In this document: positions 7,943-44,977 of the stretch, piece by piece
Numbering within the stretch: the first letter of the stretch is position 1
Layout of the letters: every line of letters starts with the position of its first letter
Source of the DNA: Patescibacteria group bacterium
GTDB lineage: Bacteria; Patescibacteriota; Minisyncoccia; Phycocordibacterales; UBA9973
Direction of reading: 5' to 3'
DNA length: 64,000 nucleotides
Assembly: GCA_040390725.1 (NCBI GenBank)
Contig: JAZJXT010000002.1
Span: 28,450-92,449, forward strand
Made by a program: the position numbers and the translations under genes
The notes under the pieces: generated by a model
Seen by the model: only the letters and a program-made list of their open reading frames with translations
What the model was told of the DNA's origin: nothing
Databases searched by the model: none

Positions 7943-9112
7943 CTACTCTTCTTTTGCCACTTCTTCAGTTTCAACTTTATCTCCGTCAGTTTTTGCAACA
8001 GTTTTACCGTCACCTTTTATGTCTATTCTCCAGCCGGTTAATTTTGCGGCTAGGCGCACATTTTGTCCGCCTTTACCGATAGCGAGTGAGAGCTGATCAT
8101 CAGCGACTTCTACTACTGCTTTGTGTTCTTTTTCATCAACATCAATAGAGAGAACTTTGGCAGGGGAAAGGGAATTGGTAATAAATTCTTTTGGATCCGC
8201 AGACCAAGGAATGATATCTATTTTTTCTCCGCCGAGTTCGGCTGTGACAGTATTCACGCGAGCTCCTCTTTGGCCGACGCAAGAACCTACTGGGTCAATG
8301 TGTTCGTCATTTGAGTGAACGGTTATTTTCGAACGAGCTCCAGCTTCGCGAGCGATGGATTTTATTTCCACTACTCCGCTGGCAATTTCTGGCGCTTCAA
8401 TGGCGAAAAGTTTTTCCAAGAATTTCGGATGCGTACGAGAAAGGCGAAGGTTGATGCCTCTTGGGGTGTCTTCGACAGAATACAAATACACGCGAATTCT
8501 TTGACCACGCTGTAAATATTCTCCGGGGATTTGTTCTTCGGCTGGCAAAATACCTGTCGCTCTGGAAAAATCAATGTATGCATTGCCTCGTTCTATTTTT
8601 TGGACAACACCGGAAATTATTTCTCCTTCTTTTATGCCGTATTCATCAATGATAGATGTGCGTTCTGCTTCACGGATTCTTTGGATAATGACTTGTTTTG
8701 CAGTTTGAGCGGCGATGCGTCCATAATCTTCTTTTGCTTCGAGGGCAAAAATGATTTCATCGTTAAGCTCTGCGCCTTTTTTTATTTTCTTCGCATCTTC
8801 GAGTAAGATGTGGTGTTCGTCGTTGAAATAAGGGCGTTCGTCTTCGTCTTTTACTTCGTAATCTTTTTCATCTTCATTTTTTTCATCCATTCGGACGATA
8901 GTGTCATCAACGACGATTTTGATTTGGAAAAAATCGGTCTTACCTGTTTCCATGTCGAATTTCGCGCGGATGATTTGTCCTTTTTTGCCGTAATCTTTTT
9001 TGTACGCGGCGGCCATGGCTTGTTCGATAGCGTCCAATATTTTTTCTTTTGGAATTTTCCTTTCTTGTTCCAATTGTTCTAATGCTGATTTGAATGTTTT
9101 TATGTCTAACAT
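7943..9112 (-). CDS. nusA: transcription termination/antitermination factor NusA
   Basis: N-terminal NusA domain (MLDIKTFKSALEQLEQERKIPKE), S1 domain, and two KH domains (GQRGARVNTV..; AIGKGGQNVRLAAKLTGW). Confidence 0.9.
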   Translation of the reverse strand: MLDIKTFKSALEQLEQERKIPKEKILDAIEQAMAAAYKKDYGKKGQIIRAKFDMETGKTDFFQIKIVVDDTIVRMDEKNEDEKDYEVKDEDERPYFNDEHHILLEDAKKIKKGAELNDEIIFALEAKEDYGRIAAQTAKQVIIQRIREAERTSIIDEYGIKEGEIISGVVQKIERGNAYIDFSRATGILPAEEQIPGEYLQRGQRIRVYLYSVEDTPRGINLRLSRTHPKFLEKLFAIEAPEIASGVVEIKSIAREAGARSKITVHSNDEHIDPVGSCVGQRGARVNTVTAELGGEKIDIIPWSADPKEFITNSLSPAKVLSIDVDEKEHKAVVEVADDQLSLAIGKGGQNVRLAAKLTGWRIDIKGDGKTVAKTDGDKVETEEVAKEE

Positions 9113-9228: not shown

Positions 9229-9594
9229 TTGTCTTTTTGCTTGGTTTGGTTGTATAATATAAACAATATGTCTAAACGAAGTTTTATTGTGTTACTTATA
9301 TCTTTTATTGTTGTTGCTATTTTCGTGTTTTTATATTTTTATATAAATAATCAAGGTATTTTTAATCCAAATTCTTCCAATACTGCTGTAGTTCCAGCCT
9401 CAAATTCAAATGTATCATCTACACCTCAAATAGTGAAAGAGCTCACCGAGTATACACCACCGTCAAAAGACTTAAAAAGCACAAAACAAATCACTAAAGA
9501 GCTCTATTCATTTAAGGTTTCCACTGCTACTAAAACTTCTTCACGAACAGATTTATTAAAAGCATTACAAAGTGTTCAGCCTTCAAGTAATTAA
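9229..9594 (+). CDS. small membrane-anchored Ser/Thr-rich protein
   Basis: N-terminal TM (FIVLLISFIVVAIFVFLYFYI) then a low-complexity S/T-rich tail. Confidence 0.4.
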   Translation: MSFCLVWLYNINNMSKRSFIVLLISFIVVAIFVFLYFYINNQGIFNPNSSNTAVVPASNSNVSSTPQIVKELTEYTPPSKDLKSTKQITKELYSFKVSTATKTSSRTDLLKALQSVQPSSN

Positions 9595-9600
9595 AAAACC

Positions 9601-11094
9601 ATGAATAATAATTTTCAAAAACTTTTAACTTCCGGGATCATTGTTTCATTATTTTTTGTTTTTTTTGGTTTTTATAATTCCGTCAGCTCGAGCGCCATTG
9701 GACGAGGCTCGGGATATGCTTGGTCTGCCAATGATGGTGACGGCATGGGGTGGCTTTCTTTTAATTGTACTTCGGGTGGAAATTGCGGTGATACAAACTA
9801 TGAAGTTACCGCAGATAGAACCACTGGTGATATGACTGGGTATGCTTGGTCTCCTAATTACGGTTGGATTAAATTTGGAGGTTTGTCAGGCTTCCCGACG
9901 GGCGGAGGCACTACTCCTGCCAATGCAAAGCTTGATTATCATACCGGCATCATGACGGGTTGGGCTAGGTTTTGTTCGGTGGCTGCGACTCCTTCACTTT
10001 GTTCAGGATGGCCTGGAACCAATAATACTAATGGAGGATGGGATGGCTGGGTGAGTTTGAATGGTACTGGATATGGAGTCAGCAAGTCAGGTACTAATTT
10101 TACAGGTTTTGCTTGGGGTGGGGCTGATGTTGTCGGCTGGATTGATTTTTCAAATGTTTCTATACGTTATCCTCACAGTCCTGCTTCGGATCCTTTTGTT
10201 ATTTTGACTGTTAATAATCAGACGAATACTGAAGCAGACCCAGTCTTGGTTAATTCCGGAGAGCCATTTGTGTTGAGGTGGGATAGTGAAAATTCTAGTT
10301 CTTGTAATGGTGATTGGACTACTGATGCATTGACTATGCCGGCAGGGTCAGCGATATTGTCAGTAATTACAGACAAGCCTTTACCGAAAACTTACACCAT
10401 TTCTTGTGTTGGACAATCTGGAACCACTGATAGTGTTGTCAATGTCAGTATTGTGCCTTCTGACGTTGTGAATGCTGTTCCAAAACTTAATTTTTACTCT
10501 TCTCCTAATAATTACGTTCTTCTTCCAAATACTAAAACGACCTTGAAGTGGAATTCAAACGTTGCTATGGCTTGTAAGGCAGATAATGCTATTCAAAATA
10601 TTCGATCATCTTCCTCATGGTCTGGTAATGTAGGTGATTTATCTGCTTCGAATTCTTTCCAAAATTCTCTTGTAGTTGATGTTCCAGACAATACTCCATC
10701 TACCGAATATGGCATAGTTTGTACTGATGAAAGTGGTGCAGAATTTAAAAAGCAGGTTTATGTTTCTCAACAATTCCCTCCTGAAGGATTTAATATCGGA
10801 TATGATGCAGTGGATCCAACATCACATACCACCATGCTTCGCTTGAAAGATATCTTTAATCTTACTAGCAGTGATTGTACTACTACGGCATCCGTAGTAG
10901 GTACTGGATGGGATGGCACCATAAAGAGTGATGGTTCTGAGGTAAAGACTGTGACTGTTCCTGGAAGTGGCGCGACTTATACAGCTACATGTACTGGGTT
11001 GAATTCCGGGCTTCCTGTCATTAGATTTATTTCCTTGAAACAAGACAGTACCGCCGGCTCAACACAAATATCACCTTCATATATTGAACATTAA
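9601..11094 (+). CDS. secreted/membrane-anchored repeat protein (497 aa) with GYAWS...GWI.F repeats
   Basis: Signal anchor LLTSGIIVSLFFVFFGFY. Repeated GYAWSANDGDGMGWLSF / GYAWSPNYGWIKFGG / GFAWGGADVVGWIDFS units. Cys-rich C-terminal half. Confidence 0.55.
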   Translation: MNNNFQKLLTSGIIVSLFFVFFGFYNSVSSSAIGRGSGYAWSANDGDGMGWLSFNCTSGGNCGDTNYEVTADRTTGDMTGYAWSPNYGWIKFGGLSGFPTGGGTTPANAKLDYHTGIMTGWARFCSVAATPSLCSGWPGTNNTNGGWDGWVSLNGTGYGVSKSGTNFTGFAWGGADVVGWIDFSNVSIRYPHSPASDPFVILTVNNQTNTEADPVLVNSGEPFVLRWDSENSSSCNGDWTTDALTMPAGSAILSVITDKPLPKTYTISCVGQSGTTDSVVNVSIVPSDVVNAVPKLNFYSSPNNYVLLPNTKTTLKWNSNVAMACKADNAIQNIRSSSSWSGNVGDLSASNSFQNSLVVDVPDNTPSTEYGIVCTDESGAEFKKQVYVSQQFPPEGFNIGYDAVDPTSHTTMLRLKDIFNLTSSDCTTTASVVGTGWDGTIKSDGSEVKTVTVPGSGATYTATCTGLNSGLPVIRFISLKQDSTAGSTQISPSYIEH

Positions 11095-11186: not shown

Positions 11187-14100
11187 ATGAGTCACAAAAT
11201 AAAAACAGCTTTAAAATCAATATTCGTTCTCTCTATGGTCGTGTTGTCAGCGCATGCTTTTGCAGTATGGACACCGCCACCAGCAGGGATACCTCCAGCC
11301 AACAATACTACGGCTCCTGTGAATGTGGGTTCTGTGACTCAATATAAAACCGGTGGGCTCGTCGTCGGAGGTTTTCGTTCTACTGGGCCTGCATTTTTTG
11401 ATGATACTGTGCAATTCAAACAGGTGACGACTTTGCCTGATTGTACTGCGACTGATTCTAGCGGTAATTTTATATACAAAGGGGCACAAATATACTACAA
11501 CGGCAGTATGGAATTTTGTAATGGAGTTACTTGGTCAGTAGTAGGCACCAAAGATTGGCTGACTACAGCAATGGGCAATATTTACTATACAAATGCCGGC
11601 AATGTAGGTATCGGTACGCAAACTCCAGCTACCAAACTCGACGTAGTGGGAACCATTACATCAACTGGCTTGAATGTCGTAGGCAATACGGCGACAACTG
11701 GTTTGACTACGGGTGCAACTGGGCTCACAGTTAGCGGACCACTTTCTATTCCTGACGGTGCATCAGCAGGGAAGGTTTTGACTTCTGATGCTGCTGGTAC
11801 TGCAACATGGCAAGGCTTAATTGCATCTTGGAGTCTTTCTGGCTCTAGTCTTTTCCCTACAGATTTTGCAAATGACAATGTCGGCATCGGCACTGATAGT
11901 CCTGCTGAACGCTTGCAAGTCAGTGGAGGTAATATTTTGACAGATAATAAATGGGCATTTGAAGCTAAAAATGCTTCGGGTGTAAAAGAGGCTTGGATGT
12001 GGCCTAGATATACTGATAATGTAATGTACACTAATTATGGTGCAAATGGTTGGAATATTCGCGACAACGGTGGAGCTCCTGTTATGTTTATGGACAAGAA
12101 TGATAATGTTGGCTTAGGTAATATTCTTCCAACTAATAAACTTTCTGTGACCGGGAATGCGGACTTCTCGGGTAATGTTGGGATAGGAACAAAAACTCCA
12201 AGCGCTCAGCTTTCTGTACTTGGTAATATTGCGATAGTAAGAGATCCAGGTTTTACAAATTACTCCCCAGGATCATCTTTGTCTCTTGAGTCTTGGAGTG
12301 ATGGAACTTCCACTAGTCATGATGATGATGTAGGGGCACAAGTTAGCGCTGCTGATTGGCTGGCTGGTACTGATGGTGCTCCGGGCACAGATAAAATTGT
12401 AAAGTATGCTTGTCCTTCCGGTAGTGGTGGTAGTACTTATCATAATGATTATTACAGAATTGACCTCGGTTCAGGAGCTTATGATTATCGAAAAATCAGT
12501 GATGTTTTTTGTGTTGCCGGTACAGATAAATTCTCTTTGAGAACCGACAGAGGCAATTTGCAATTTTTAGATACTAATTCTAATCCTAAATTTATTATGA
12601 CTCAGTCAGGTAATGTCGGTATCGGCGTCACTGCTCCTGCTGTAAAGCTTGACGTAAACGGCGCAGTAAAATTCGGCGATGATACTACGATTGTTTGTGA
12701 TACCACTCATCCGCAAAACGCAGGAATACAGAGATATGACAAAGTAGATAATATAATGAAAGCTTGTAACGGCACCACATGGATAGCTGTCGGAGCAAAT
12801 GCTGCACCTTCATCTTCACTCTGGTCTGCAGGTACGGGTGATGATGTTTTCAAAACACTAAATACTGGCAATACTGGTATCGGAACCCAAACTCCAGCAG
12901 CAAAATTGCATTTGAGCGGAGGTAATTTCTTGATGGATAATAGCGCGACTTTGCAAGCTTACAATCACGCTGTGCCGGCGATGATTAATGATTGGATGTG
13001 GCCTAGATACCATGATCCTGTTTCCGGTACTGACATCATGTACACTAATTTTGATGTAAATGGATGGAGCATTCGCAACAATACTGCGCACCCTGTGATG
13101 TTTATGAAAGACAATGGCAATGTCGGTATCAACACAATAAACCCGGTAAACAAGCTTTCAGTTAACGGAGATGTTAATATCGGTGATTCTATAATTCCTG
13201 GAAAGCTCGGTATAAATACCACGACTCCTACTTCTTCTTTGGATGTAAATGGAGACATCACTGCTTCTAGGGGTGTTTCACTTGTGAATAGTTCAGCGCT
13301 TAGTTTTTATTCTGGCACAAAGGGAACAAGTGTATATGAGCTTCCATATTTGCCTGCGACGGGCAATGATACTTGTGGCACTTTAAATTCTGATACTGAT
13401 GGTGATGGCAGTGTTGTTCCAAACAACGATCGTGTCATGTGTGATGGTTTAATTTCAGGACCTAGATGTTATGATCGTGTTCATCAAAGCACTGGAGATG
13501 TGGGCGCTTATGTGACATGTGTGGCTGATGCGGGTACTTATACTATTGCAAACAATACTAATAATTTACAATTTTCAAATGGCACAGGCACTAATGCGGG
13601 TGTCAGAGTCACTTTAGATAAAGACGGCAAGATGGGCGTGGGTACGACGATTCCACAGGCAAAACTCGACGTCAACGGCGGAATTAAATTCGGTTTAGAT
13701 GGCTTGGCTACGGATACTATTTGTACTGTTGCCGGTGTGCAGAGGTACAATGGTGCTATGCAATATTGTGATGGAACAAATTGGGTTCCTGTCGGGTCTC
13801 CTATGTTTTGGAATGTTATCGGTACGGGTTCTGACCTCGCTACTATAAATACTGGTAATGTCGGCATCGGTACGGGCACGAATCCTCCATTAGCAAAGCT
13901 TGATGTAAATGGTGCAGTTAAATTCGGTGATCAAACTGTTGTAAAAGATATTACTACTCCAAATTCAAATGTGCCGGGCTTTCCAAATGTCACTTGTAAT
14001 GTAGCCGGTACCCAGAGATACAATTCTGTTTCTGCAAAGATGGAATCTTGCGATGGTCATTATTGGTCAAGCGTTGGAGATAAATCTCTTTGGAATGCTG

Positions 14101-17100
14101 ACACGACTGGTGTCATGGTTTCTTTGGCTACTCCTGGACAAAAAGTCGGTATCGGCACAGCTACTCCTCATTCTGCTCTCGAAGTTGTCGGTAATTTACA
14201 AATCACAAGCCCTATCAGTGGTCCTAGTTCCAACAGTATAATTTTAGGAAGTGGAAAGTATGACAATTATGGTGGATGGCCTCTTATTCCAATGCTGACA
14301 ACTTCTGGTGATCCATTACCAGCAGACCCTGGATCAAGTGCGGATACTTGTGACAGTAATGAAAATGCTGTATATAGTTGTCCGGATAGTGTTACAAAGA
14401 ATTGTACAGATGTTACTTCGGGTACATTTAAGTCTTCCACTAGTAGTGCTCCTAGGGACGCATGGTATAAGCGAGATGTGTCTTGTGTTTCTCCTGATGA
14501 GCCTTTATATCAAATACAAAATAATTCTGGGGATTTGAAATTCATAAATAATAATGGTCCGCAAGTTACAGTTAATCAAAATGGCAATGTCGGCATAGGC
14601 ACTACCACTGCTCCGGGTGCAAAACTCGATGTAAACGGTGGCATCAAATTCGGCCTTGATGGTTTGGCTACGGATACTACTTGTACTGTTGCCGGTGTGC
14701 AGAGATATAATCCTGCTAATTCAAATGGAATGCAATTTTGTGATGGCTCACACTGGAAAGATGTCGGTTCTCCTGCTACATGGAATGAAGTTGCTGGTGT
14801 GCTTTCTCCATTTACTCTGACAGATAAAATCAGTATTGGTAATGTTGCTCCTTTTGAAATAGATCCAGGCAATGTTTCTTCAAATTCCTCAAATGCTGGA
14901 TTCCTTCGTTTTGGTGATAATTCTGGATGGAAATTCCATTTTGGAAGAGCTAAAGAATCCACTTCTTCCGGTTTCAATACTGACACTACCGGTTCTATTA
15001 TGACGATGCAAGACAATGGCAATGTGGGTATTGGTACTACATCTCCGAAGGCAAAATTTGAAGTTGCAGGAAATAGTGGAGATGACTTAATTAACATTAG
15101 AAATCTTTCTACCAGTCAGCCAAATGCAACTTCTTGGGCATTGCGTCCGGTTACAAATAGTAAGACTGCTTATGCTACAGATTTGCAATTCTTCGAACAC
15201 GGACTAGACGGAGCTAGAGTTACCTTCCAAGGTAATGGTGGAAATGTAGGTATCGGTACGACAAATCCTACCGCTAGGCTCGATGTTGCCGGAGCAGTTA
15301 AATTCGGTGATGAGCACGTAGTTACTACTTGTGATTCTACTACGAATGGTACACAAAGGTATAATAGTTCTGGAGTAATGCAATGGTGTAATGGTGTAAA
15401 CTGGCAGAGTTATGGTAGTGGTGTGGGCTGGATAGCTAATGGCAATGATATTTATAATGGTAACAATGCTGGAAATGTAGGGATAGGCACCGGAGCAACT
15501 CCTGTAAAAAATAAACTTTTTGTTAATGGTGATGTTGGTACTTCTGCTTCTATTATTAGTGGCGGTATGATGTATTTGCAAGGCAATGATTATGAACATT
15601 TAGGTAATTTGAAATATGTCAGCCAAGGAATCTTTCTCGGAGGAGATGGATTGAGTCATGGAGATATTTCATGGCTTCCAAATTCCAATACCCTTAACCT
15701 AGGTACAGGTGATGATCCTACAAAGGCAGCTAATTATCCTGATCAATATGGCCCTGTAAATCTTTCCTTGGGTGGACAAATCAGAATCGGTGGCTCTACT
15801 GCGGTTTTTGATTACAATGGACACAGTGTTACTACTGTCCCTCATCCTCCTACGAAGGGGCAAGTTTTGACAGCGTTAGATTCTACCGGTCTTGCTTCTT
15901 GGCAAGCACCCCAAGCTGGCCCTTGGTCAGTTGTAGGTGATGATATTTCAAATTCAAATACCGGAATGGTTAAAGTGAATGGTTCAATAGCTACAATATT
16001 GGGATTAAATAATAATGCGAACATCAGCCAGTATGATTTGGGAGCAAACAAGATTGGTGCCGCTACTTCTATTTATTCTTATGGACGCATTTGTGCCGGA
16101 AATAATTGGGGAACTTGTGACAGTGCTACTCAGTCCGGTGTAGTTATAGAATCTTCCGGTCAAGGTAAATTTGGAGCCGTTGATATTTCTGGGAATGGGC
16201 CGTCATACTTTGCTGCCGGGAATCTCGGAGTAGGCACAAATTCTCCTAACGCTAAACTTGATGTGAGCGGTGATGTGCAGGTTTCAGATGGTGTTTCTGT
16301 GGTAGATAGCTCAGCGGTTAGTTTTTATTCCGGTGATAAACATATCAACTCTCATACGGATTGGACTAATAAAAGTTCAAATAGTGCGACGCGTACCCCT
16401 GATACTTGTCCTGGTGCTGATACAAAACTTAAATTTGAGTGTATAGGTTCTAATACTGTGAATTCTTGTACAGACACCGCTGATTATCAGGAATATACTT
16501 CCGGACAACTTACCTTTGATGGTTGGGCAACTCGCACAGTTTCTTGTGTGGCTACTACCGGTGTTTATTCTGTAAAGAATAATAATAGCACTTTGCAATT
16601 CTTGAATGATAAAGGCACTGCTAAGTTAACTTTGGATCAAAATGGCAATTTGGGTGTAGGTGGCAATGTTAGTCTAGGGGCTGGCGGTAGTCTTCTTCAG
16701 ACTTCACCATTATACTTACTCGGTGATGCTAATGGATATACTGCTCTTAATTTAGACCCTAGCCAGTACGCCAGCCAGGGTATTCGTTTCGGAGGAGATG
16801 GAAAATCTCACGGAGACATGGCATGGATTCCAGGCTTAAATACATTTTATCTTGGAACAGGAGATAATCCGCAAGATATGCTCACAGGTGTTCCAAATAG
16901 ATACGGTCCGGCTAATCTTACTTTGGCGGGTGCTCTATCTATCGGCGGGCAAATTACAATTGCCGGCGGTTCCCCTGGTGCCGGAAAAGTTTTGACATCA
17001 GACAGTACAGGTAAGGCGACTTGGCAACAGCTCCCTCCTTCATCTGTATCTCCTTGGCTAGTAGGAACGAATCCAAACACACATAATACTACTATTAGTA

Positions 17101-17372
17101 CTGCGGCTAATACTGAAGTTACAGTAAATGGAAATTTGACAATTGCTAATGGCGCTAATGGGGTCCTTACTACTTCGGGAGATATTAACGCTGGTCAGAA
17201 TTTAAATGTTGCAGGAAGTTTAATTTTACTAAAAAAGTGTTACACTAATGATAAAAAAACTACTTTTACTAATTTCTATGGTACTAGTACCCCGAATCTA
17301 TATGGTAGAGCACTTTTTTTAAATGGAGATGGCAGTATTTACCCACAGCATGTAGATGGTTGTGATAACTAA
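11187..17372 (+). CDS. giant secreted tail-fibre-like repeat protein (2061 aa)
   Basis: Signal peptide (LKSIFVLSMVVLSAHAFA). At least 15 'GNVGIGT.TP.AKLDVNG' units. About six copies of the C...G.QRYN...C.G..W..VG module. Large internal duplications (WMWPRY...VMFM twice; GDG.SHGD..W.P..NT..LGTGD..YGP.NL twice; G.VLTSD..G.A.WQ three times). Confidence 0.7.
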   Translation: MSHKIKTALKSIFVLSMVVLSAHAFAVWTPPPAGIPPANNTTAPVNVGSVTQYKTGGLVVGGFRSTGPAFFDDTVQFKQVTTLPDCTATDSSGNFIYKGAQIYYNGSMEFCNGVTWSVVGTKDWLTTAMGNIYYTNAGNVGIGTQTPATKLDVVGTITSTGLNVVGNTATTGLTTGATGLTVSGPLSIPDGASAGKVLTSDAAGTATWQGLIASWSLSGSSLFPTDFANDNVGIGTDSPAERLQVSGGNILTDNKWAFEAKNASGVKEAWMWPRYTDNVMYTNYGANGWNIRDNGGAPVMFMDKNDNVGLGNILPTNKLSVTGNADFSGNVGIGTKTPSAQLSVLGNIAIVRDPGFTNYSPGSSLSLESWSDGTSTSHDDDVGAQVSAADWLAGTDGAPGTDKIVKYACPSGSGGSTYHNDYYRIDLGSGAYDYRKISDVFCVAGTDKFSLRTDRGNLQFLDTNSNPKFIMTQSGNVGIGVTAPAVKLDVNGAVKFGDDTTIVCDTTHPQNAGIQRYDKVDNIMKACNGTTWIAVGANAAPSSSLWSAGTGDDVFKTLNTGNTGIGTQTPAAKLHLSGGNFLMDNSATLQAYNHAVPAMINDWMWPRYHDPVSGTDIMYTNFDVNGWSIRNNTAHPVMFMKDNGNVGINTINPVNKLSVNGDVNIGDSIIPGKLGINTTTPTSSLDVNGDITASRGVSLVNSSALSFYSGTKGTSVYELPYLPATGNDTCGTLNSDTDGDGSVVPNNDRVMCDGLISGPRCYDRVHQSTGDVGAYVTCVADAGTYTIANNTNNLQFSNGTGTNAGVRVTLDKDGKMGVGTTIPQAKLDVNGGIKFGLDGLATDTICTVAGVQRYNGAMQYCDGTNWVPVGSPMFWNVIGTGSDLATINTGNVGIGTGTNPPLAKLDVNGAVKFGDQTVVKDITTPNSNVPGFPNVTCNVAGTQRYNSVSAKMESCDGHYWSSVGDKSLWNADTTGVMVSLATPGQKVGIGTATPHSALEVVGNLQITSPISGPSSNSIILGSGKYDNYGGWPLIPMLTTSGDPLPADPGSSADTCDSNENAVYSCPDSVTKNCTDVTSGTFKSSTSSAPRDAWYKRDVSCVSPDEPLYQIQNNSGDLKFINNNGPQVTVNQNGNVGIGTTTAPGAKLDVNGGIKFGLDGLATDTTCTVAGVQRYNPANSNGMQFCDGSHWKDVGSPATWNEVAGVLSPFTLTDKISIGNVAPFEIDPGNVSSNSSNAGFLRFGDNSGWKFHFGRAKESTSSGFNTDTTGSIMTMQDNGNVGIGTTSPKAKFEVAGNSGDDLINIRNLSTSQPNATSWALRPVTNSKTAYATDLQFFEHGLDGARVTFQGNGGNVGIGTTNPTARLDVAGAVKFGDEHVVTTCDSTTNGTQRYNSSGVMQWCNGVNWQSYGSGVGWIANGNDIYNGNNAGNVGIGTGATPVKNKLFVNGDVGTSASIISGGMMYLQGNDYEHLGNLKYVSQGIFLGGDGLSHGDISWLPNSNTLNLGTGDDPTKAANYPDQYGPVNLSLGGQIRIGGSTAVFDYNGHSVTTVPHPPTKGQVLTALDSTGLASWQAPQAGPWSVVGDDISNSNTGMVKVNGSIATILGLNNNANISQYDLGANKIGAATSIYSYGRICAGNNWGTCDSATQSGVVIESSGQGKFGAVDISGNGPSYFAAGNLGVGTNSPNAKLDVSGDVQVSDGVSVVDSSAVSFYSGDKHINSHTDWTNKSSNSATRTPDTCPGADTKLKFECIGSNTVNSCTDTADYQEYTSGQLTFDGWATRTVSCVATTGVYSVKNNNSTLQFLNDKGTAKLTLDQNGNLGVGGNVSLGAGGSLLQTSPLYLLGDANGYTALNLDPSQYASQGIRFGGDGKSHGDMAWIPGLNTFYLGTGDNPQDMLTGVPNRYGPANLTLAGALSIGGQITIAGGSPGAGKVLTSDSTGKATWQQLPPSSVSPWLVGTNPNTHNTTISTAANTEVTVNGNLTIANGANGVLTTSGDINAGQNLNVAGSLILLKKCYTNDKKTTFTNFYGTSTPNLYGRALFLNGDGSIYPQHVDGCDN

Positions 17373-17420: not shown

Positions 17421-17449
17421 AAAAAAATCCCCATGACGGGGATTTTTTT
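17421..17449 (+). terminator. rho-independent terminator after the giant gene
   Basis: aaaaaaatcccc atgac ggggattttttt: perfect stem flanked by an A-run and a T-run (bidirectional). Confidence 0.6.
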
Positions 17450-17463: not shown

Positions 17464-19215
17464 ATGCAAGTAAATGAAGATCAGTTAAAAAAATTTATTT
17501 TGGAAGCAGGGCTTGTGACGCGGACGGATTTGGAAGAAGTCGCAGAGAAAGAGGTAAAGACAAATCAAAAATTTGGCAATATTTTATTGTCAGAAGGAAA
17601 AATTTCTGAAACAGATTTAAAAAGAATGGAAGCTTTGGTTTTAGGAATTCCATTTGTGAATTTGGCAAATGAAAAAATAGATTTTTCTGTTATATCTTTG
17701 GTTCCCGAACCTATCGCTCGCAATCACAATATTATTGCTTATAAAAAAAGTGACAAGGGTCTCGAGGTTGCGATGTTTGATGTGGATGATTTACCTGTGA
17801 TTGATTTCGTAAAGAAACATTCCGGTTTGAAAATATTGCCTAGGCTTACTGATAGTTCTTCTATCAAAACTGCTTTGGCGCAATACGGCAAAACTTTGCA
17901 AATGGAATTTGATGATATTATTCAAAAAGAAAATTCTTCTTTCAAGAAAATAAATGAGATAGAAGATGGTGAGAAATCAGAAAAAGAATTAAAAGAAATG
18001 GCGGAAGATTTGCCTGTGGTAAAAATAGTCGATTCTTTGATTTCTCATGCCATATTGCAGAATGCTTCCGACGTGCATATCGAGCCGGGGGAAAATAATC
18101 TCGTTGTGCGATACCGAATAGACGGTATATTGCATGATGCTATGACTTTGACAAAAAGTGCGGCTAGCGGGGTCACCGCTAGAATAAAAGTTTTAGCCAA
18201 TTTGAAACTAGACGAAAAAAGATTACCTCAAGATGGCAGATTTAAAATAGAAAAAAATGGAGATAAAGTTTCCTTTCGTGTTTCCACCTTGCCGACTTTT
18301 TATGGAGAGAAAACTGTTATTAGAATTTTGAAAGAAGGCGCACATGGATTTTCTTTGGAAGGCCTCGGTTTTCACGGTGAAGGATTGGAGAGGATTCACA
18401 ATTCTTTGAAACAAAGAATAGGTATGGTATTGGCTACGGGCCCTACGGGCTCGGGTAAAACAACAACTCTCTATACGATGCTCGATATTTTAAACAGGCC
18501 GGAAGTGAATATTTCCACCGTTGAAGATCCTATCGAATATCAAATGCCGAGAGTAAATCAAACGCAAGTAAAACCGGAAATAGGAATGACTTTTGCAAAT
18601 GGCTTGCGCAGTTTATTGCGACAAGATCCTGATATAATAATGGTGGGGGAGATACGTGACGGAGAAACTGCCGGACTCGCAGTGAATGCATCTCTTACCG
18701 GGCACTTGGTTCTTTCTACAATCCACACGAATTCTGCTGCGGGTGCGATACCGAGACTTATAGACATGGGAATATTACCATTTTTGATAATTTCTACGGT
18801 AAAAACAATCATAGCTCAGAGGTTGGTGCGTCAGCTTACAGCAAATAAAGAAAAATATTTTTTATCTGCGGATGAAATAAAAAATTTGGCAAAAATTATA
18901 GATTTGGACAGGATGCTCCAAATGTTAAAAAATGAAAAAGTCGTAGGAGTGAAAGACACTTGGGAGAAAATTCCTTTTTATAAAGCAGTACCGAGCAGTG
19001 AAACACCTGACGGGTATTCAAATCGTATAGGTATTCACGAAGTTTTAAAAATGTCTCTGGCTATAAAAGAAATAATTACTCGCGGAGGAAGCCAAGACGA
19101 GATAGAGAAACAAGCAAAAGAAGAAGGCATGATGACAATATTAGAAGATGGAGTTTTCCAGTCAGTCTTGGGCAATACGACACTGGAAGAAGTATTTAGA
19201 GTTGTTTCAGAATAA
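17464..19215 (+). CDS. pilB: type IV pilus assembly ATPase PilB/GspE
   Basis: GspE_N-like N-terminus; Walker A GPTGSGKTTTLY; Asp and His boxes. Confidence 0.9.
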   Translation: MQVNEDQLKKFILEAGLVTRTDLEEVAEKEVKTNQKFGNILLSEGKISETDLKRMEALVLGIPFVNLANEKIDFSVISLVPEPIARNHNIIAYKKSDKGLEVAMFDVDDLPVIDFVKKHSGLKILPRLTDSSSIKTALAQYGKTLQMEFDDIIQKENSSFKKINEIEDGEKSEKELKEMAEDLPVVKIVDSLISHAILQNASDVHIEPGENNLVVRYRIDGILHDAMTLTKSAASGVTARIKVLANLKLDEKRLPQDGRFKIEKNGDKVSFRVSTLPTFYGEKTVIRILKEGAHGFSLEGLGFHGEGLERIHNSLKQRIGMVLATGPTGSGKTTTLYTMLDILNRPEVNISTVEDPIEYQMPRVNQTQVKPEIGMTFANGLRSLLRQDPDIIMVGEIRDGETAGLAVNASLTGHLVLSTIHTNSAAGAIPRLIDMGILPFLIISTVKTIIAQRLVRQLTANKEKYFLSADEIKNLAKIIDLDRMLQMLKNEKVVGVKDTWEKIPFYKAVPSSETPDGYSNRIGIHEVLKMSLAIKEIITRGGSQDEIEKQAKEEGMMTILEDGVFQSVLGNTTLEEVFRVVSE

Positions 19216-19216
19216 A

Positions 19217-20434
19217 ATGAAATTTTTTTACACTGCAAAATTACAAAATGGAGAAATTTTAAAAGGAGAAATGGATTCTTCAGATCGTTTTACTCTTTCA
19301 CGCGAGTTGCGAACACGCGGGTATATTCCTTTGTCTGTTTCAGCAAGGGGAGTAAATTCTTTTGATGTAATGAAAGAATTTACTCGTATTTTTGGCCGTA
19401 TTAAAGTCTCTGAGCAAGTTATTTTAACCAAGAATTTAGGCAACATGCTCAAGGCCGGGTTGGCATTGTCTCGCGCATTGTCTGTTTTGGAAAAACAAAC
19501 AACAAATGAAACATTAAGAAAAATTTTAATAGCACTTACAGGGGAAATAAATTCAGGTGGGACATTTTCTTCCGGGTTATCAAAATTTCCAAAAGTTTTT
19601 TCAAAACTTTTTGTTTCGATGGTTCGCGCCGGCGAGGAGTCGGGCAATCTCGCCGGCGCATTGGCTGAAGTCGGTGCGAATTTGGAGAAATCAAATGCTT
19701 TGACTAAAAAAATAAAGGGTGCGCTCATTTATCCGGGAGTTATTCTCTCTGCTATGGTTGTCGTCGGAGTATTGATGTTTGCGTTCGTGGTGCCGACGCT
19801 TGCAAAAACTTTCATTGAGCTCGGCGTAGCATTGCCGGCATCTACTCAGTTTATAATATTTTTAGGTAATTTCTTTTCAAATTATTTAATTTTATCTTTT
19901 GCTTTGATTATTGGTTTTGTTTTCGGCATCGTGGCTCTTTTCCGAGCGTCTTTCATGGCTAGGCCCATTGATTTTGTAGTTTTGCGTATTCCAATTATTA
20001 GTAATTTGGCCAAGGAATTAAATACTGCCCGCACAGCGAGGACCATCGCATCGCTTATTATTTCCGGAGTTCCCATTACCCGCGCAGTGCAAATAGCCGA
20101 AGATGTGGTTCAAAATGTATATTATAAAAAAGTTTTAAAGGATGCGCGCATAGCCATAGAAAAAGGTGCGCCATTTTCGGAAGTTTTTACAGAACATCCG
20201 GAACTTTATCCGGTGATGATGTCGGAGATGGTAGAAGTCGGAGAAGAGACGGGCAAGCTTTCCGATATGTTGCTCGAGATTGCTGTTTTTTATGAAAATG
20301 AAATAGAAAATAAAACAAAAAATCTATCCACTATCATAGAACCATTTTTGATGATAATAATCGGTACAGGAGTAGGATTTTTTGCAGTGTCTATGATCAC
20401 ACCTTTGTACTCTATACTTAATAATATAAATTAA
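19217..20434 (+). CDS. pilC: type IV pilus inner-membrane platform protein PilC/GspF
   Basis: Starts MKFFYTAKLQNGEIL at the ATG (19217) two nt after the pilB stop; the 19148 start in the ORF track overlaps pilB and is rejected. Two GspF repeats with TM segments. Confidence 0.9.
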   Translation: MKFFYTAKLQNGEILKGEMDSSDRFTLSRELRTRGYIPLSVSARGVNSFDVMKEFTRIFGRIKVSEQVILTKNLGNMLKAGLALSRALSVLEKQTTNETLRKILIALTGEINSGGTFSSGLSKFPKVFSKLFVSMVRAGEESGNLAGALAEVGANLEKSNALTKKIKGALIYPGVILSAMVVVGVLMFAFVVPTLAKTFIELGVALPASTQFIIFLGNFFSNYLILSFALIIGFVFGIVALFRASFMARPIDFVVLRIPIISNLAKELNTARTARTIASLIISGVPITRAVQIAEDVVQNVYYKKVLKDARIAIEKGAPFSEVFTEHPELYPVMMSEMVEVGEETGKLSDMLLEIAVFYENEIENKTKNLSTIIEPFLMIIIGTGVGFFAVSMITPLYSILNNIN

Positions 20435-20435
20435 A

Positions 20436-20903
20436 ATGAGAAATTTTTATCAAAAGGGAATAACATTAGTTGAGACTTTGGTTGCAGTGGCTATCATTGT
20501 TCTCATTCTTGCTATTGTTTTGCCTTCTTTTAATACAATAAAAAAAAATAATATTTTGAAAAGTACCACTGAAGATATTTTTTCAGCTCTGGACAATGCT
20601 CATTCACAGACTCTCTCGTCTGTGAGTTCGTCCACGTATGGGGTGCACTTTCAGTCTGATAAAGTTGTGATTTTTAAAGGCACAGTTTATTCATCGAATG
20701 ATGTAAATAATAAAACTGTAAATATAAACTTTCCGGCAAGTATTTCAAATGTAAATTTTAATAGTGTGAGTGCAATTTCCGGTGATATATACTTTGCTCA
20801 TCTGACTGGAGTGCCGAGCAAGACCGGTACGGTGACCATTGCTGTTTCTTCCAGTACAAAAATAATTACGATTTCAGCAACGGGGAATTTTAGTATAAAT
20901 TAA
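20436..20903 (+). CDS. prepilin-type N-terminal cleavage/methylation domain protein (pilin/pseudopilin)
   Basis: KG|ITLVETLVAVAIIVLILAIV: class III signal with Glu+5. Confidence 0.8.
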   Translation: MRNFYQKGITLVETLVAVAIIVLILAIVLPSFNTIKKNNILKSTTEDIFSALDNAHSQTLSSVSSSTYGVHFQSDKVVIFKGTVYSSNDVNNKTVNINFPASISNVNFNSVSAISGDIYFAHLTGVPSKTGTVTIAVSSSTKIITISATGNFSIN

Positions 20904-20905
20904 TC

Positions 20906-21343
20906 ATGATAAATTTTCTTAAAAATATAAAAGAAAAAAGAAATAAAGCCGGATTTTTAATGGTTGAAGTCATTGTGGCTATTTCTATTATTACCGCTTC
21001 TGTTTTGTCAGCGATGGCAGTCGCCCAAAAGGCAGTATCTATTTCCAGACAATCAGTTCATTCCGCACAAGCCGCATTCTTATTGGAAGAAGGTTCAGAG
21101 AATGCCCGAATATCGAGAGATAATGCATGGGCCAATGTTGCAAGCATAAACACAACAGAGACAATAGGTATTTTTACAAGGACGGTGGTGGCTTCTAGTG
21201 TATTGCGAAATGTGACGACGGGAGCTATTGGCTCCGGAGTCAGTGATGCCAATACAAAATTAATAACTGTCACGGTTTCTTGGAAGGAGGGAGCTACGAC
21301 TTTATCAAAAACTTTACCATTTTATTTGGTAAATATTTTTTAA
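20906..21343 (+). CDS. prepilin-like protein
   Basis: AG|FLMVEVIVAISIITASVL. Confidence 0.7.
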   Translation: MINFLKNIKEKRNKAGFLMVEVIVAISIITASVLSAMAVAQKAVSISRQSVHSAQAAFLLEEGSENARISRDNAWANVASINTTETIGIFTRTVVASSVLRNVTTGAIGSGVSDANTKLITVTVSWKEGATTLSKTLPFYLVNIF

Positions 21344-21350
21344 TAATTAT

Positions 21351-21866
21351 ATGCAAATATTTTTCAAAAATAAAAAATTAATAAATAGCGGCGGGTATGC
21401 TTTGGTGGAAACTATTTTTTACATTGCTATTTTAGGTATTCTTTCTACGGCTGTTATCAGTGCTTTGGTGACTATGGGAAAAACATTCAAAGAAACTGTC
21501 GCACAAACGGCATTATTGCAAAGTTCCTCTATTATGGAAAGAATGTCCAGAGAAGTACGGCAAGACTATAGCGCAACTTTAGTCAGTTCAACTGATTTAA
21601 TCTTAAAAGATTCCGCCGGAGTAAATAAAACGGAATTCAAGCTTTCTGGTACTGATTTGCAATTATTGGAAGGTTCCGGTTTAACTTTTACCGGTAACTT
21701 GAATTCTCCAAATGTTACAGTTACAGCTTTGAGTTTTACACAGATTACAACCACACAAGGAAAAGCATTTAAAGTGGTCATGTCAGTCAGATACACTTTA
21801 GGGTCAGTTGTTCGCACTGCGGATTTTTATGATACAGTTACATTGAGGGGAAGTTATGTGCATTAA
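21351..21866 (+). CDS. prepilin-like protein
   Basis: GG|YALVETIFYIAILGILSTAV. Confidence 0.7.
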   Translation: MQIFFKNKKLINSGGYALVETIFYIAILGILSTAVISALVTMGKTFKETVAQTALLQSSSIMERMSREVRQDYSATLVSSTDLILKDSAGVNKTEFKLSGTDLQLLEGSGLTFTGNLNSPNVTVTALSFTQITTTQGKAFKVVMSVRYTLGSVVRTADFYDTVTLRGSYVH

Positions 21867-21868
21867 TT

Positions 21869-23188
21869 ATGAAAATAAAAAATAAAAAAATAAAATATAA
21901 TTCCGGCGCGGCGATGCTCATATCTGTGATATTTTTTCTTTTTATTTCTTTGGCGATTATTGCCGGACTTGTTTCTCCTTCAGTGCGAGAATTTAAAATT
22001 GCCAGGGATTATTTGCAGTCCAGGCAAAGTTTCTTTTTGTCTGAATCTGCTATTGAAGATTCTTATTATCGTATAAATAATAGCTTGCCACTTGGTTCGA
22101 CAGATACTTTGACTATCGGCAGTACTACGGCGACAGCTACTATTGTGGCTGACGATGTTAATAATAAAACCATTACATCTCTTGGTGATTTATCTTCAAG
22201 ACAAAGAACAAATCAATTAAAAATAAATTCCAATTCTTCGGTAGTTTTTGCTTATGGAACACAGGCAGGTGAGGGGGGAATTATTTTTTTACAGAATACA
22301 GGATTAGTCGGTAATTTGTATTCCAATGGACCTATTGCGGGATATAGTAATGCTTATGTGACAGGTAATGCGTATGCTGCTGGCAGTTCAGGAACAATCA
22401 CTACGAGTGGCGGTTCTTTTTGCATAGGGGGTTTTACTTCAAATAATCATTGTACATTAAATTCTAGTGATGCTCATGCTCATACAATAACAGGGACGAC
22501 AGTAGCAGGTACTCTATACTGCCAAACAGGTTCTTCTAATAGTACTTCTTGCAATACAACCCAAGCAGACCCGGCAGTTATTTCTTTGCCTGTAACTGAT
22601 GCAAATATTACTACATGGAAACACGATGCTGCTACAGGAACTATTATTAATGGTGATTATACTGTCTCTGCGGATACTACTCTCGGCACAGCAAATGCCA
22701 CGGAAATTACTGGAAATCTTACAGTGAATAGCCGTACTACTCTTACAATTGCAAATACTATTTATGTTGTTGGAAATATTGTAATTAACGGTGATTTACA
22801 AATGGCATCTATTTACGGACCACACAGCGCAGTGATTATTGCAGATGGCTTGATTTCAACTGGTGGAGGTGTTCATGTTTATGATTCCGGAACTGCTGGG
22901 AGCTATGTAATGTTACTTTCAACTAGCACTTGCGATGAAAATACTTCTACTGGCCCTTGTAGCGGGCATAATGCTATGGATATAGGAAATAGCTCTGATA
23001 TTATGATTATTAATGCGCAGAATGGAACTGTTTATATGGCTAATGGCGGAAACGCAAAAGAAGTTGTTGGACAAAAAATACGCTTAAAGAATAATACTGT
23101 TGTTACTTATGGTACTGGTTCCACTACTGCTAATTTTTTGAGTGGTATTGGTAATGTTTGGCGGGTTTCGAGCTGGCTCGAGATATAA
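21869..23188 (+). CDS. large pilin-like / pilus-associated protein (439 aa)
   Basis: Pilin-like hydrophobic N-terminus SGAAMLISVIFFLFISLAIIAGLV lacking Glu+5. Thr/Gly/Asn-rich C-terminal beta-rich domain. Confidence 0.5.
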   Translation: MKIKNKKIKYNSGAAMLISVIFFLFISLAIIAGLVSPSVREFKIARDYLQSRQSFFLSESAIEDSYYRINNSLPLGSTDTLTIGSTTATATIVADDVNNKTITSLGDLSSRQRTNQLKINSNSSVVFAYGTQAGEGGIIFLQNTGLVGNLYSNGPIAGYSNAYVTGNAYAAGSSGTITTSGGSFCIGGFTSNNHCTLNSSDAHAHTITGTTVAGTLYCQTGSSNSTSCNTTQADPAVISLPVTDANITTWKHDAATGTIINGDYTVSADTTLGTANATEITGNLTVNSRTTLTIANTIYVVGNIVINGDLQMASIYGPHSAVIIADGLISTGGGVHVYDSGTAGSYVMLLSTSTCDENTSTGPCSGHNAMDIGNSSDIMIINAQNGTVYMANGGNAKEVVGQKIRLKNNTVVTYGTGSTTANFLSGIGNVWRVSSWLEI

Positions 23189-44903: not shown

Positions 44904-44977
44904 ATTTAAAAAACTCGCATCTTTTTAATGTAAATAATCATTTGTAATTCAGCCCTATTTTGTGCTATATTTCAGTA

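What the first reader, a model, noticed from the sequence alone, without database searches (positions are those of the whole stretch)
9601..11094. 497-aa secreted protein with GYAWS/GWI.F aromatic repeats preceding the giant gene
Signal-anchor then four or more repeats of the type GYAWSANDGDGMGWLSF / GYAWSPNYGWIKFGG / MTGWARFCS / GFAWGGADVVGWIDFS, followed by a Cys-containing S/T/N-rich beta-region. The Trp/Tyr-rich repeats are reminiscent of carbohydrate-binding or cell-wall-binding modules. Together with the giant protein it forms a two-gene surface module upstream of the pilus genes.
Basis: partly seen in the sequence, partly recalled or inferred. Interest (0 to 1): 0.5.

Follow-up and report, generated by a model that had tools for sequence, protein, structure and literature searches.

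The report
Surface protein partnered with tail-fibre genes
This gene encodes an exported protein of a very large, unnamed family found mainly in ultra-small Patescibacteria; it has a tryptophan-rich four-repeat domain, an Ig-like stalk and a conserved six-residue end, and it nearly always sits beside phage-tail-fibre-like surface proteins that may help these bacteria attach to other cells.

Summary
ORF 9601-11094 encodes 497 aa: a signal peptide, four GYAWS/GWIxF repeats (the third is divergent), and three Cys-pair Ig-like domains. The repeats are predicted to fold into one compact beta-barrel-like domain. This domain matches no Pfam or NCBIfam model and has no significant solved relative. It defines a large unnamed family (8,159 clusters at 50% identity), mainly Patescibacteria and absent from viral contigs.

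- Nearly all members end in P-x-[YFW]-x-E-x-COOH, whatever lies in between.
- The conserved partner is not the pilus operon. PilB lies within 10 kb in 41% of well-flanked loci.

The conserved partner is a module that stays on one strand in varying gene order. It has two other parts:
- A ~100-aa single-TM protein (window 9268-9594).
- One or more secreted tail-fibre-like proteins sharing a ~35-aa N-terminal peptide (88% of well-flanked loci). The window's 2061-aa giant is one of them.

My best reading is a secreted adaptor or co-component of a cell-surface fibre-display module. This is inferred, not shown. The carbohydrate/cell-wall-binding idea found no support but is not excluded.

The parts
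9229..9258 (+). Promoter-like site (TTGTCT-18-TATAAT) just upstream of the small gene's ATG
   Evidence: 10 of 12 match; the number of such sites in the region is no higher than in shuffled sequence, so this is weak evidence. Its position favours ATG 9268 as the true start rather than TTG 9229.
9268..9594 (+). Small single-TM protein (108 aa). It has an N-terminal TM helix, then a hydrophilic region with three phi-phi-x-x-L-x-x-phi motifs (IVKELTEY, ITKELYSF, DLLKALQS). Its stop codon lies 6 nt before the family gene.
   Evidence: An equivalent TM protein with a hydrophilic tail is adjacent to the family gene, upstream or downstream, in 45 of 80 loci by a crude detector. It also directly precedes fibre-anchor genes in L091 and L092.
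9601..9696 (+). Signal peptide of the 497-aa protein (aa 1-32; predicted cleavage SSA|IG)
   Evidence: Sequence. Family-wide statistics. AF2 predicts helix 2-23 followed by a low-confidence linker. Cleavage is inferred.
9697..10176 (+). N-terminal Trp-rich four-repeat domain (aa 33-192), predicted to be a compact beta-barrel-like fold. R1 9700-9825, R2 9826-9945, R3 9946-10092 (divergent, with a Cys125-Cys134 loop), R4 10093-10176.
10195..11037 (+). Three Ig/PKD-like beta-sandwich domains (aa 199-290, 296-391, 396-479), each with one Cys pair. This is the variable 'stalk'; family members range from 284 to 1223 aa.
   Evidence: AF2. Foldseek hits are to tandem-Ig arrays only. Weak PKD-type PDB sequence hit, E=8e-4. 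Cys positions. Length range.
11074..11094 (+). Conserved C-terminal tail P-S-Y-I-E-H followed by the stop codon (family motif P-x-[YFW]-x-E-x-COOH)
   Evidence: Among the 70 complete tails ending in E-x, P is present at -5 in 63. AF2 predicts the tail to be disordered. The same tail occurs on 9 adjacent non-family ORFs against about 0.4 expected.
11187..17372 (+). 2061-aa secreted tail-fibre-like protein, the module partner. Signal peptide 11187-11258; conserved N-terminal 'anchor' peptide FAVWTPPPAGIPPANNTTAPVNVGSVTQYKTGGL at 11259-11387; nine NVGIGT..P..KL.V.G repeats.
   Evidence: Fibre-anchor HMM E=1.5e-15. PHROG tail-fibre families, E=1.7e-34. Homologous anchors in neighbours of family genes.
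17421..17449 (+). Perfect 12-bp hairpin with flanking A and T runs (AAAAAAATCCCC-ATGAC-GGGGATTTTTTT). It is terminator-like and separates the three-gene module from pilB.
   Evidence: fold of the 40-nt stretch, -18.3 kcal/mol. Function is inferred.

Best explanation
The 497-aa protein is a Sec-exported, probably signal-peptide-cleaved, cell-surface protein. It belongs to a very large uncharacterised family found mainly in Patescibacteria (Paceibacteria/Parcubacteria).

It is built as a conserved head, a variable stalk and a conserved tail:
- Head: four Trp-rich beta-hairpin repeats that close into one compact barrel-like domain.
- Stalk: one to many Ig-like domains, three in this protein.
- Tail: a flexible C-terminal peptide, P-x-[YFW]-x-E-x-COOH.

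It works as part of a three-component surface module encoded on one strand. The other two parts are a ~100-aa single-pass membrane protein with short repeated amphipathic motifs, and one or several secreted, phage-tail-fibre-like proteins. These fibre proteins are interchangeable in length and in their distal domains, but they share a ~35-residue Pro-rich N-terminal peptide.

Most likely mechanism (inferred):
- The small membrane protein tethers the assembly.
- The barrel-stalk-tail protein acts as an adaptor or co-component. Through its two conserved ends it docks the conserved elements of its partners and holds the fibres at a set distance from the membrane.
- The fibres mediate contact with other cells or surfaces.

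Shown: the architecture, export signals, family size, tail conservation and gene linkage. Inferred: which elements bind which, the cleavage of the signal peptide, and the adhesive role.
For: Architecture:
- ORF and motifs.
- Repeat homology.
- Confident AF2 models.
- Barrel-like fold matches.

Family:
- 523 full-length-type homologues.
- At least 4,209 N-domain homologues in the word-indexed search.
- 8,159 clusters at 50% identity in the exhaustive search.
- None are named, and there is no Pfam or NCBIfam match.
- No relatives on 2.9 million viral contigs.

Export: 300 of 306 members have an N-terminal signal, and conserved Cys pairs are present.

Tail: conserved whatever the middle domains are.

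Linkage:
- Across 80 species-level loci, 84 fibre-anchor ORFs lie in 57 loci, and all are on the family gene's strand.
- 48 of the 84 lie within 500 bp.
- 30 of the 34 loci with at least 8 kb on both flanks have a fibre-anchor ORF, against 14 of 34 for PilB.
- The fibre family is the top non-housekeeping neighbour in blast clustering, present in 58 of 80 loci.
- Gene order varies between lineages (s = small TM protein, F = family gene, T = fibre): sFT, FsT, TF, TTF. The genomic context also differs: next to nusA, fusA, rpoB or others. This argues for selection on linkage rather than inherited synteny.

Partners:
- The window's giant carries the anchor and matches phage tail-fibre families.
- Neighbouring fibres often end in Peptidase_S74 chaperone domains.
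- Fibres share only their first ~35 residues, as expected of a docking peptide.
Against: - No physical interaction was tested. No structure prediction of the complex was possible.
- Reciprocal test: starting from three independent fibre-anchor proteins, no N-barrel gene lay within the flanks (0 of 3). One of the three loci looks non-Patescibacterial. The fibre anchor therefore does not need an adjacent N-barrel gene, and small TM plus fibre is the tighter pair.
- Four of the 34 well-flanked loci lack a fibre gene. L004 and L005 have the family gene directly upstream of pilB.
- The small TM protein was detected in only 45 of 80 loci, with a crude detector.
- Co-location of surface-protein genes in variable islands could arise without direct interaction.
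- Coordinates of the barrel model could not be inspected, so no binding groove was examined.
Confidence: 0.45

Rival explanations
1. It is a free-standing adhesin or lectin. The Trp/Tyr-rich barrel binds a glycan or cell-wall polymer of a host or neighbouring cell. The Ig domains act as a spacer, and the tail fixes the protein to its own envelope. The neighbouring fibres would be independent adhesins in the same surface-gene island.
For: - The domain is aromatic-rich, strongly conserved and extracellular.
- The head-stalk-tail layout is typical of adhesins.
- Full-length fold hits are to tandem-Ig adhesins and to the glycan-binding SGBP-B.
- Weak Foldseek hits include the beta-barrel lectins OAA and BOA, but at probability 0.1 or lower and TM about 0.2.
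Against: - No match to any CBM, choline-binding or cell-wall-binding family in the query or in 20 diverse members.
- A ligand-binding head facing diverse hosts would be expected to vary, yet the barrel is the most conserved part of the protein and the fibres are the variable part.
- This reading does not explain the same-strand, abutting linkage with fibres across shuffled gene orders.
Confidence: 0.25
2. It is an accessory of the type IV / competence-type pilus encoded downstream. It could be a Sec-secreted, non-pilin tip adhesin (functionally like PilY1) or an assembly factor that docks onto the minor-pilin complex through its C-terminal tail.
For: - In the window, and in a clade of relatives, the gene lies between nusA and pilB-pilC plus four pseudopilin genes.
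- In L004 and L005 it abuts pilB directly.
- The conserved C-terminal peptide could dock by strand addition. This is an inference by analogy.
Against: - PilB is within 10 kb in only 14 of 34 well-flanked loci, and is absent in L006-L009.
- A strong hairpin with a T-run separates the module from pilB in the window.
- No PilY1/PilC-type domain and no prepilin leader.
Confidence: 0.1
3. It is a general envelope or S-layer-associated structural protein. Its C-terminal motif is a sorting signal handled by an unidentified enzyme, and the adjacency to fibre genes reflects only clustering of surface genes.
For: - Rare relatives carry the tail motif followed by PP and a hydrophobic helix, like a classical motif-plus-TM sorting signal.
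- The tail also occurs on other secreted proteins next to the family gene.
- The family is very abundant and conserved.
Against: - No sortase, exosortase or peptidase gene recurs in the 80 loci.
- Most members lack any TM segment after the motif.
- No NCBIfam CTERM model matches.
- The strict same-strand abutment with fibres goes beyond loose clustering.
Confidence: 0.15

Closest known systems
Phage tail fibres with Peptidase_S74 intramolecular chaperone, and cellular fibre adhesins of predatory bacteria (Bdellovibrio chimeric fibre proteins; recalled from memory, not checked here)
   Same: The partner proteins match PHROG tail-fibre families and often end in Peptidase_S74. They combine a conserved N-terminal attachment peptide with hypervariable distal parts, which is the logic of interchangeable receptor-binding fibres docked to a constant adaptor.
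   Different: - These proteins are chromosomal and carry Sec signal peptides.
- The N-barrel family is absent from viral contigs.
- The 497-aa protein has no detectable counterpart among phage adaptor or baseplate proteins (no PHROG hit).
   Same: Short Gly/Trp/Tyr-rich beta-hairpin repeats on secreted proteins of monoderm-type bacteria.
   Different: - No HMM match at E<=1.
- Each repeat unit is about 40 aa with up to three strands.
- Four units are predicted to close into one compact barrel-like domain rather than an open superhelical solenoid.
Small 8-stranded beta-barrel domains of secreted or surface ligand-binding proteins of Gram-negatives (hemophilin/HphA, HpuA, TbpB, NHBA, fHbp)
   Different: - Sequence identity is 5-17% and Foldseek E is above 0.4.
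- Membrane OMP barrels and de novo barrels score equally well, so the similarity is generic to the fold.
- They have no fourfold internal repeat.
- Their envelope type and secretion route are different.
C-terminal protein-sorting signals (LPXTG/sortase; PEP-CTERM/exosortase; PGF-CTERM/archaeosortase)
   Same: A short conserved C-terminal motif on secreted surface proteins, independent of the passenger domains. A few relatives have the motif followed by PP and a hydrophobic helix.
   Different: - In most members the protein ends one residue after the invariant Glu, with no TM helix and no basic tail.
- The motif P-x-[YFW]-x-E matches no NCBIfam CTERM model.
- No sorting enzyme recurs nearby.
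PilY1-type non-pilin adhesins of type IV pili
   Same: A Sec-secreted large protein encoded beside pilus genes in this window, with possible C-terminal docking.
   Different: - No PilY1 domain.
- Pilus adjacency holds in only about 41% of loci.

Membership tests
Unnamed Patescibacterial 'N-barrel / Ig stalk / PxYxE-tail' family (defined here) | N-terminal Sec signal followed within about 13 residues by the four-repeat Trp-rich domain | tested here: met
   Query matches the N-domain HMM at aa 39-190 of the stop-to-stop frame, E=3.7e-60. Family statistics.
Unnamed Patescibacterial 'N-barrel / Ig stalk / PxYxE-tail' family (defined here) | C-terminal P-x-[YFW]-x-E-x-COOH tail | tested here: met
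   Query ends ..SPSYIEH. The motif is present in 55 (strict) plus 15 (E-x only) of 78 complete members in the species-level loci.
Unnamed Patescibacterial 'N-barrel / Ig stalk / PxYxE-tail' family (defined here) | Same-strand adjacency to a fibre-anchor protein and to a small TM protein | tested here: met
   Window order: small TM 9268-9594, family gene 9601-11094, fibre 11187-17372. Frequencies.
Choline-binding / cell-wall-binding repeats (PF01473 and relatives) | Significant match to the repeat HMM | tested here: not met
   No Pfam hit at E<=1 for the query or for any of 20 N-domains.
Choline-binding / cell-wall-binding repeats (PF01473 and relatives) | Open beta-hairpin solenoid fold | tested here: inconclusive
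   The AF2 model's best neighbours are closed small barrels, but the model coordinates could not be inspected directly.
Carbohydrate-binding modules (any curated CBM) | HMM match to a CBM family, or demonstrated glycan binding | tested here: not met
   No HMM match. Glycan binding is not testable with these tools.
LPXTG sortase substrates | LPXTG-like motif, then a hydrophobic helix, then a basic tail at the C-terminus | tested here: not met
   The protein ends ..PSYIEH with no TM segment or basic tail. No sortase recurs nearby.
PEP-CTERM / exosortase substrates | PEP motif, then a TM helix, then an Arg-rich tail; NCBIfam CTERM model match | tested here: not met
   No NCBIfam hit. Most members have no TM helix. 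Three relatives have the motif followed by PP and a helix, which remains unexplained.
Type IV pilins / pseudopilins | Class III leader ending in Gly, hydrophobic N-terminus with Glu5, N_methyl motif | tested here: not met
   No N_methyl hit. The N-terminus is a Sec-type signal. Genuine prepilin motifs are seen only in ORFs 20436, 20906 and 21351.
PilY1-type pilus tip adhesins | C-terminal PilY1/PilC beta-propeller domain; encoded with the minor pilins | tested here: not met
   No such Pfam domain. The gene is separated from the pilin genes by the giant gene, a terminator-like hairpin, and pilB and pilC.
Hemophilin / SLP-type 8-stranded barrel domains | Structural superposition with significant score plus sequence or profile relatedness | tested here: inconclusive

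The most novel reading that the evidence does not exclude
The barrel-stalk-tail family, the small repeat-bearing membrane protein and the anchor-bearing tail-fibre-like proteins together form a previously undescribed cell-surface fibre-display system, mainly in Patescibacteria. In this reading the P-x-[YFW]-x-E-COOH tail is a new kind of C-terminal docking or sorting signal, and the conserved ~35-aa fibre N-terminus is its cognate attachment peptide. Ultra-small episymbionts could then swap host-recognition fibres on a constant adaptor.
Probability: 0.25. Interest if true: 0.8.

Novelty: new variant of a known kind. Interest (0 to 1): 0.6.

Why it matters
How uncultivated Patescibacteria (CPR) recognise and hold on to their host cells is largely unknown outside Saccharibacteria, where type IV pili are implicated (PMC11623550, abstract only, as listed). 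This analysis has three outcomes:
- It picks out a highly conserved, very abundant and entirely unannotated protein family: 8,159 clusters at 50% identity, with no Pfam or NCBIfam model.
- It identifies a family-wide C-terminal peptide motif.
- It shows a tight genetic link between the family and hypervariable phage-tail-fibre-like secreted proteins.

If the module is a fibre-display apparatus, it offers concrete and testable candidates for host attachment and host range in Paceibacteria. It would also add a new domain, a new repeat and a new C-terminal signal for annotation pipelines. If instead the protein is simply one more Ig-stalk surface protein, the practical gain is an annotation for thousands of 'hypothetical' genes.

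Tried and rejected
- Pfam, NCBIfam and PHROGs scans of the 497-aa protein gave no hits. Pfam scans of 20 N-domains gave only sporadic non-significant hits. Pfam and NCBIfam scans of multi-copy hairpin-array relatives hit only unrelated accessory domains such as PKD, TSP3 and Lcl_C.
- The PDB sequence search with the family profile gave only a weak PKD-type hit to the Ig region.
- Foldseek of the full model returned only generic tandem-Ig arrays.
- Foldseek of the N-domain against the PDB gave nothing significant.
- The AFDB library was unavailable, so no comparison with predicted structures was made.
- The idea that the tail is a genome-wide sorting signal found little support. In the window only one other ORF has a vaguely similar end (21869-23188..SSWLEI), and this is not recovered in the equivalent ORFs of related loci.
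- The idea that the pilus operon is the conserved partner was rejected on frequency and on distant loci.
- Prophage origin was rejected: there are no relatives on viral contigs, no other phage genes nearby, and all three proteins carry Sec signals.
- The word-indexed search with the fibre anchor was uninformative. It collected 1,359 candidates and returned only short proteins.
- Four literature searches found nothing on this family or module.
- The tail's last residue differs with gene order: Asn is commonest when the small gene is upstream, Val or Phe when it is downstream. I judged this to be confounded by phylogeny and did not pursue it.
Full report
**1. What is at the coordinates**

ORF 9601-11094 (+) encodes 497 aa, as stated. 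An identical protein is deposited as a 'hypothetical protein' of a Patescibacteria-group MAG.

The sequence begins with a Sec-type signal: K7, a hydrophobic stretch at residues 8-24, and SSA|I at residues 30-33.

G[YFW]A[WR] occurs at aa 38, 80, 120 and 169, and GW[ILV]xF at aa 50, 88 and 179. The ten cysteines form two short loops in the N-terminal part (56/62 and 125/134) and three widely spaced pairs (235/269, 325/374, 426/464).

**2. Are the repeats real?**

I cut a 120-sequence family alignment into four segments and compared the sub-profiles with hhalign.
- R1, R2 and R4 match one another at 96-97% probability.
- R3 matches R1 at 84% over its second half. It is a copy whose hairpin is interrupted by the Cys125-Cys134 loop.

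The unit is about 40 aa. It consists of a strand 'tGYAWs', a turn, a strand 'GWIxF', a loop, and a short strand 'YGV' that leads into the next unit. The Trp and Gly residues of these motifs are invariant across diverse members: 25 invariant columns in a 20-sequence alignment with 47-60% identity to the query.

**3. Structure**

AlphaFold2 with the family alignment gives a confident model (mean pLDDT 84). It shows these elements:
- An N-terminal helix at residues 2-23.
- An all-beta N-domain at about residues 35-190.
- Three beta-sandwich domains at 199-290, 296-391 and 396-479.
- A disordered last six residues.

Foldseek of the whole model finds only generic tandem-Ig arrays, such as adhesins, SGBP-B, GhpA fragments and complement.

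The N-domain modelled alone has pLDDT 86 and pTM 0.82.
- Foldseek against the PDB gives nothing significant. The best hits are HphA (E = 0.44) and hemophilin (TM 0.46).

I read this as a compact barrel-like domain built from four repeats, with no solved close relative. I could not inspect the coordinates, and the AFDB library was unavailable.

**4. Family**

No Pfam, NCBIfam or PHROG model matches the protein or any of 20 diverse N-domains.

The full-length query retrieves 523 homologues, all unnamed and all from Patescibacteria. Many share only the N-terminal third. An N-domain-only profile gives three results:
- At least 4,209 proteins in the word-indexed search. The commonest form there is about 300-335 aa.
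- 8,159 clusters at 50% identity in the exhaustive search, of which 5,308 have E <= 1e-10.
- 355 stretches encoding relatives among the GTDB species-representative genomes. The 80 loci kept are labelled Nomurabacteria, Paceibacteria, Kaiserbacteria, Taylorbacteria, Parcubacteria or 'uncultured Saccharibacteria' MAGs.

There are no relatives on 2.9 million viral contigs.

Some proteins repeat the whole module two to six times, or carry long arrays of the basic hairpin. One of these, P0298, has TSP3 repeats and looks non-Patescibacterial. The hairpin is therefore a more general, uncurated repeat.

**5. An unexpected hallmark: the C-terminal tail**

Nearly every homologue ends in P-x-[YFW]-x-E-x-COOH, exactly one residue after the Glu. 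This holds whatever the number or type of middle domains.
- In the 80 species-level loci, 55 of 78 complete members match a strict pattern and 15 more end in E-x. Among those 70 tails, Pro is at position -5 in 63.
- The same tail occurs on nine other ORFs of at least 100 aa in these loci, out of 1,750, against about 0.4 expected. All are on the same strand, upstream of the family gene, abutting it or within about 3 kb.
- Among representatives, a few relatives extend past the Glu by 2-5 residues.
- Three relatives have the motif followed by PP and a hydrophobic helix, for example ..LPKWKEIPP-FGSWLRDYFVSLTNFFF. This recalls a motif-plus-TM sorting signal.

No NCBIfam CTERM model matches, and no candidate sorting enzyme recurs nearby. 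The tail is a conserved linear element recognised by something. What recognises it remains unexplained.

**6. Genomic context in the window**

The order is as follows:
- nusA (7943-9112, minus strand)
- small TM protein (ATG 9268-9594)
- the family gene (9601-11094), starting 6 nt after the small gene's stop codon
- the giant gene (11187-17372), 92 nt further on
- a perfect 12-bp hairpin with a T-run (17421-17449)
- pilB (17464-19215)
- pilC (19148-20434)
- three prepilin-type ORFs with G|xxxVE motifs
- a 439-aa pilin-like ORF without Glu5
- tpiA, then pgk
- further downstream, recJ and comEC

**7. Which neighbour is the conserved partner?**

Close relatives keep the nusA | X | pilB arrangement. 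In L004 and L005 the family gene abuts pilB with no large gene in between.

More distant members sit next to fusA, rpoB or other genes, with no pilus genes nearby. What stays constant is a pair of neighbours:
- An adjacent ~100-aa protein with one N-terminal TM helix and a hydrophilic tail.
- One or more secreted proteins of very different lengths (134 to 2061 aa). All begin, right after the signal peptide, with A-W-[TS]-x-P..PP-x-G-N..P-[ILV]-N-[VT]-[GS]..Q-x-K-x-G.

An HMM of this 'anchor' gives these counts:
- It finds 84 ORFs in 57 of the 80 loci.
- All 84 are on the family gene's strand.
- 48 lie within 500 bp.
- Among the 34 loci with at least 8 kb on both flanks, the anchor is present in 30 (88%), PilB in 14 (41%) and NusA in 19 (56%).

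Blast clustering of all ORFs confirms that the fibre family is the top non-housekeeping neighbour, present in 58 loci.

Gene order differs by lineage. With s = small TM protein, F = family gene and T = fibre, the orders seen include sFT, FsT, TF and TTF.

The window's giant matches the anchor HMM (E = 1.5e-15) and PHROG tail-fibre families (E = 1.7e-34). Its counterparts elsewhere often end in the Peptidase_S74 intramolecular chaperone domain. The fibres share only about 35 N-terminal residues and then diverge completely.

The small protein carries two to four short phi-phi-x-x-L-x-x-phi motifs. The window's copy has three: IVKELTEY, ITKELYSF and DLLKALQS.

**8. A caveat from the reciprocal test**

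I started from three independent short anchor-bearing proteins. No N-barrel gene lay within their flanks. The small TM protein, however, directly preceded the anchor gene in two of the three loci. The third locus looks non-Patescibacterial.

So small TM protein plus fibre is the tighter pair. The N-barrel gene accompanies one fibre locus rather than every fibre gene. This fits one shared component serving several fibres. It also fits a looser relationship.

**9. Interpretation**

Shown:
- An exported multidomain protein with a conserved head and a conserved tail separated by a variable Ig stalk.
- A strong, order-independent, same-strand genetic linkage to tail-fibre-like secreted proteins and to a small membrane protein.

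Inferred:
- The signal peptide is cleaved. Many members have canonical AxA sites just before the barrel.
- The protein is held at the surface through its conserved ends.
- It serves as an adaptor or co-component that positions interchangeable fibres, which in turn contact other cells.

I give this reading 0.45. The rivals are:
- A free-standing lectin or adhesin (0.25). It found no family or fold support, but binding was not testable.
- An envelope protein with an unrecognised sorting signal (0.15).
- A pilus accessory (0.10).

**10. Novelty and verdict**

The protein is a typical, though extended, member of a very large but entirely uncurated family. The repeat, the barrel domain, the tail motif and the three-gene module are not described in the libraries or the literature I could search.

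In kind, it is a bacterial surface-protein and fibre-adhesin system. That is a known kind, so I rate it a new variant rather than categorically new. Interest is 0.6: the linkage is robust and bears on how Patescibacteria attach to hosts, but the mechanism is not yet demonstrated.

Noticed in passing
window 11074-11094, and the C-termini of homologues P0002-P0357: A family-wide extreme C-terminal motif, P-x-[YFW]-x-E-x-COOH. Rare variants extend past the Glu, or add PP and a hydrophobic helix, which looks like a sorting signal. No known CTERM family matches.
   Followed up: partly
window 9268-9594: A small single-TM protein with three short amphipathic phi-phi-x-x-L-x-x-phi motifs. The equivalent gene accompanies both the family gene and fibre-anchor genes in other genomes. 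The annotated TTG start at 9229 is probably wrong; ATG 9268 follows a TATAAT box.
   Followed up: partly
window 11187-17372: The 2061-aa giant matches phage tail-fibre PHROGs. It has nine NVGIGT..P..KL.V.G repeats and a conserved ~35-aa Pro-rich N-terminal peptide shared with fibres of 134-2061 aa elsewhere. Unlike many counterparts, it has no detectable Peptidase_S74 domain.
   Followed up: partly
window 17421-17449: A perfect 12-bp hairpin flanked by A7 and T7 runs (-18.3 kcal/mol for the 40-nt stretch) between the giant gene and pilB. It looks like a bidirectional terminator, yet the simple terminator scan did not list it.
   Followed up: partly
window 17464-23188: A compact type IV / Com-type pilus cluster: PilB (T2SSE + MshEN), PilC, three prepilin-like ORFs (KG|ITLVE, AG|FLMVE, GG|YALVE) and a 439-aa pilin-like protein without Glu5. 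No PilM, PilN, PilO, PilQ, PilT or prepilin peptidase was found among the ORFs I scanned around the cluster. pilB and pilC overlap by 68 nt as called.
   Followed up: partly
window 29974-32139: ComEC-like protein (DUF4131 + Competence domains) with a weak HNH-endonuclease match near its C-terminus (aa 635-654, E about 2e-3). No other C-terminal domain matched.
   Followed up: no
L091 9700-15890: A tandemly duplicated three-gene unit: a 94-aa TM protein, a 125-aa fibre-anchor protein, and a large secreted protein (862 or 675 aa). The first two genes are identical between the copies. It has no N-barrel gene and may be a variant fibre module.
   Followed up: no
L044 7620-9821, L049 7535-9826, L066 2405-5071, L058 3242-5641: Large secreted proteins (733-888 aa) immediately upstream of the family gene carry the same ..P-G-[YF]-x-E-x tail. 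They did not reach the N-barrel HMM threshold in the locus scan (E <= 1e-5). Three of the four share a 'CPAG.(E/Q)C.W' N-terminus.
   Followed up: no
window 39629-42958 and 44960-48568: Two further large ORFs (1109 and 1202 aa) on the + strand were not examined. Neither matches the N-barrel or the fibre-anchor HMM.
   Followed up: no
window 1-64000: GC skew is positive in 31 of 32 2-kb bins and the cumulative skew rises almost throughout. Most long ORFs are on the + strand, which suggests that the whole window lies on one replichore's leading strand.
   Followed up: no
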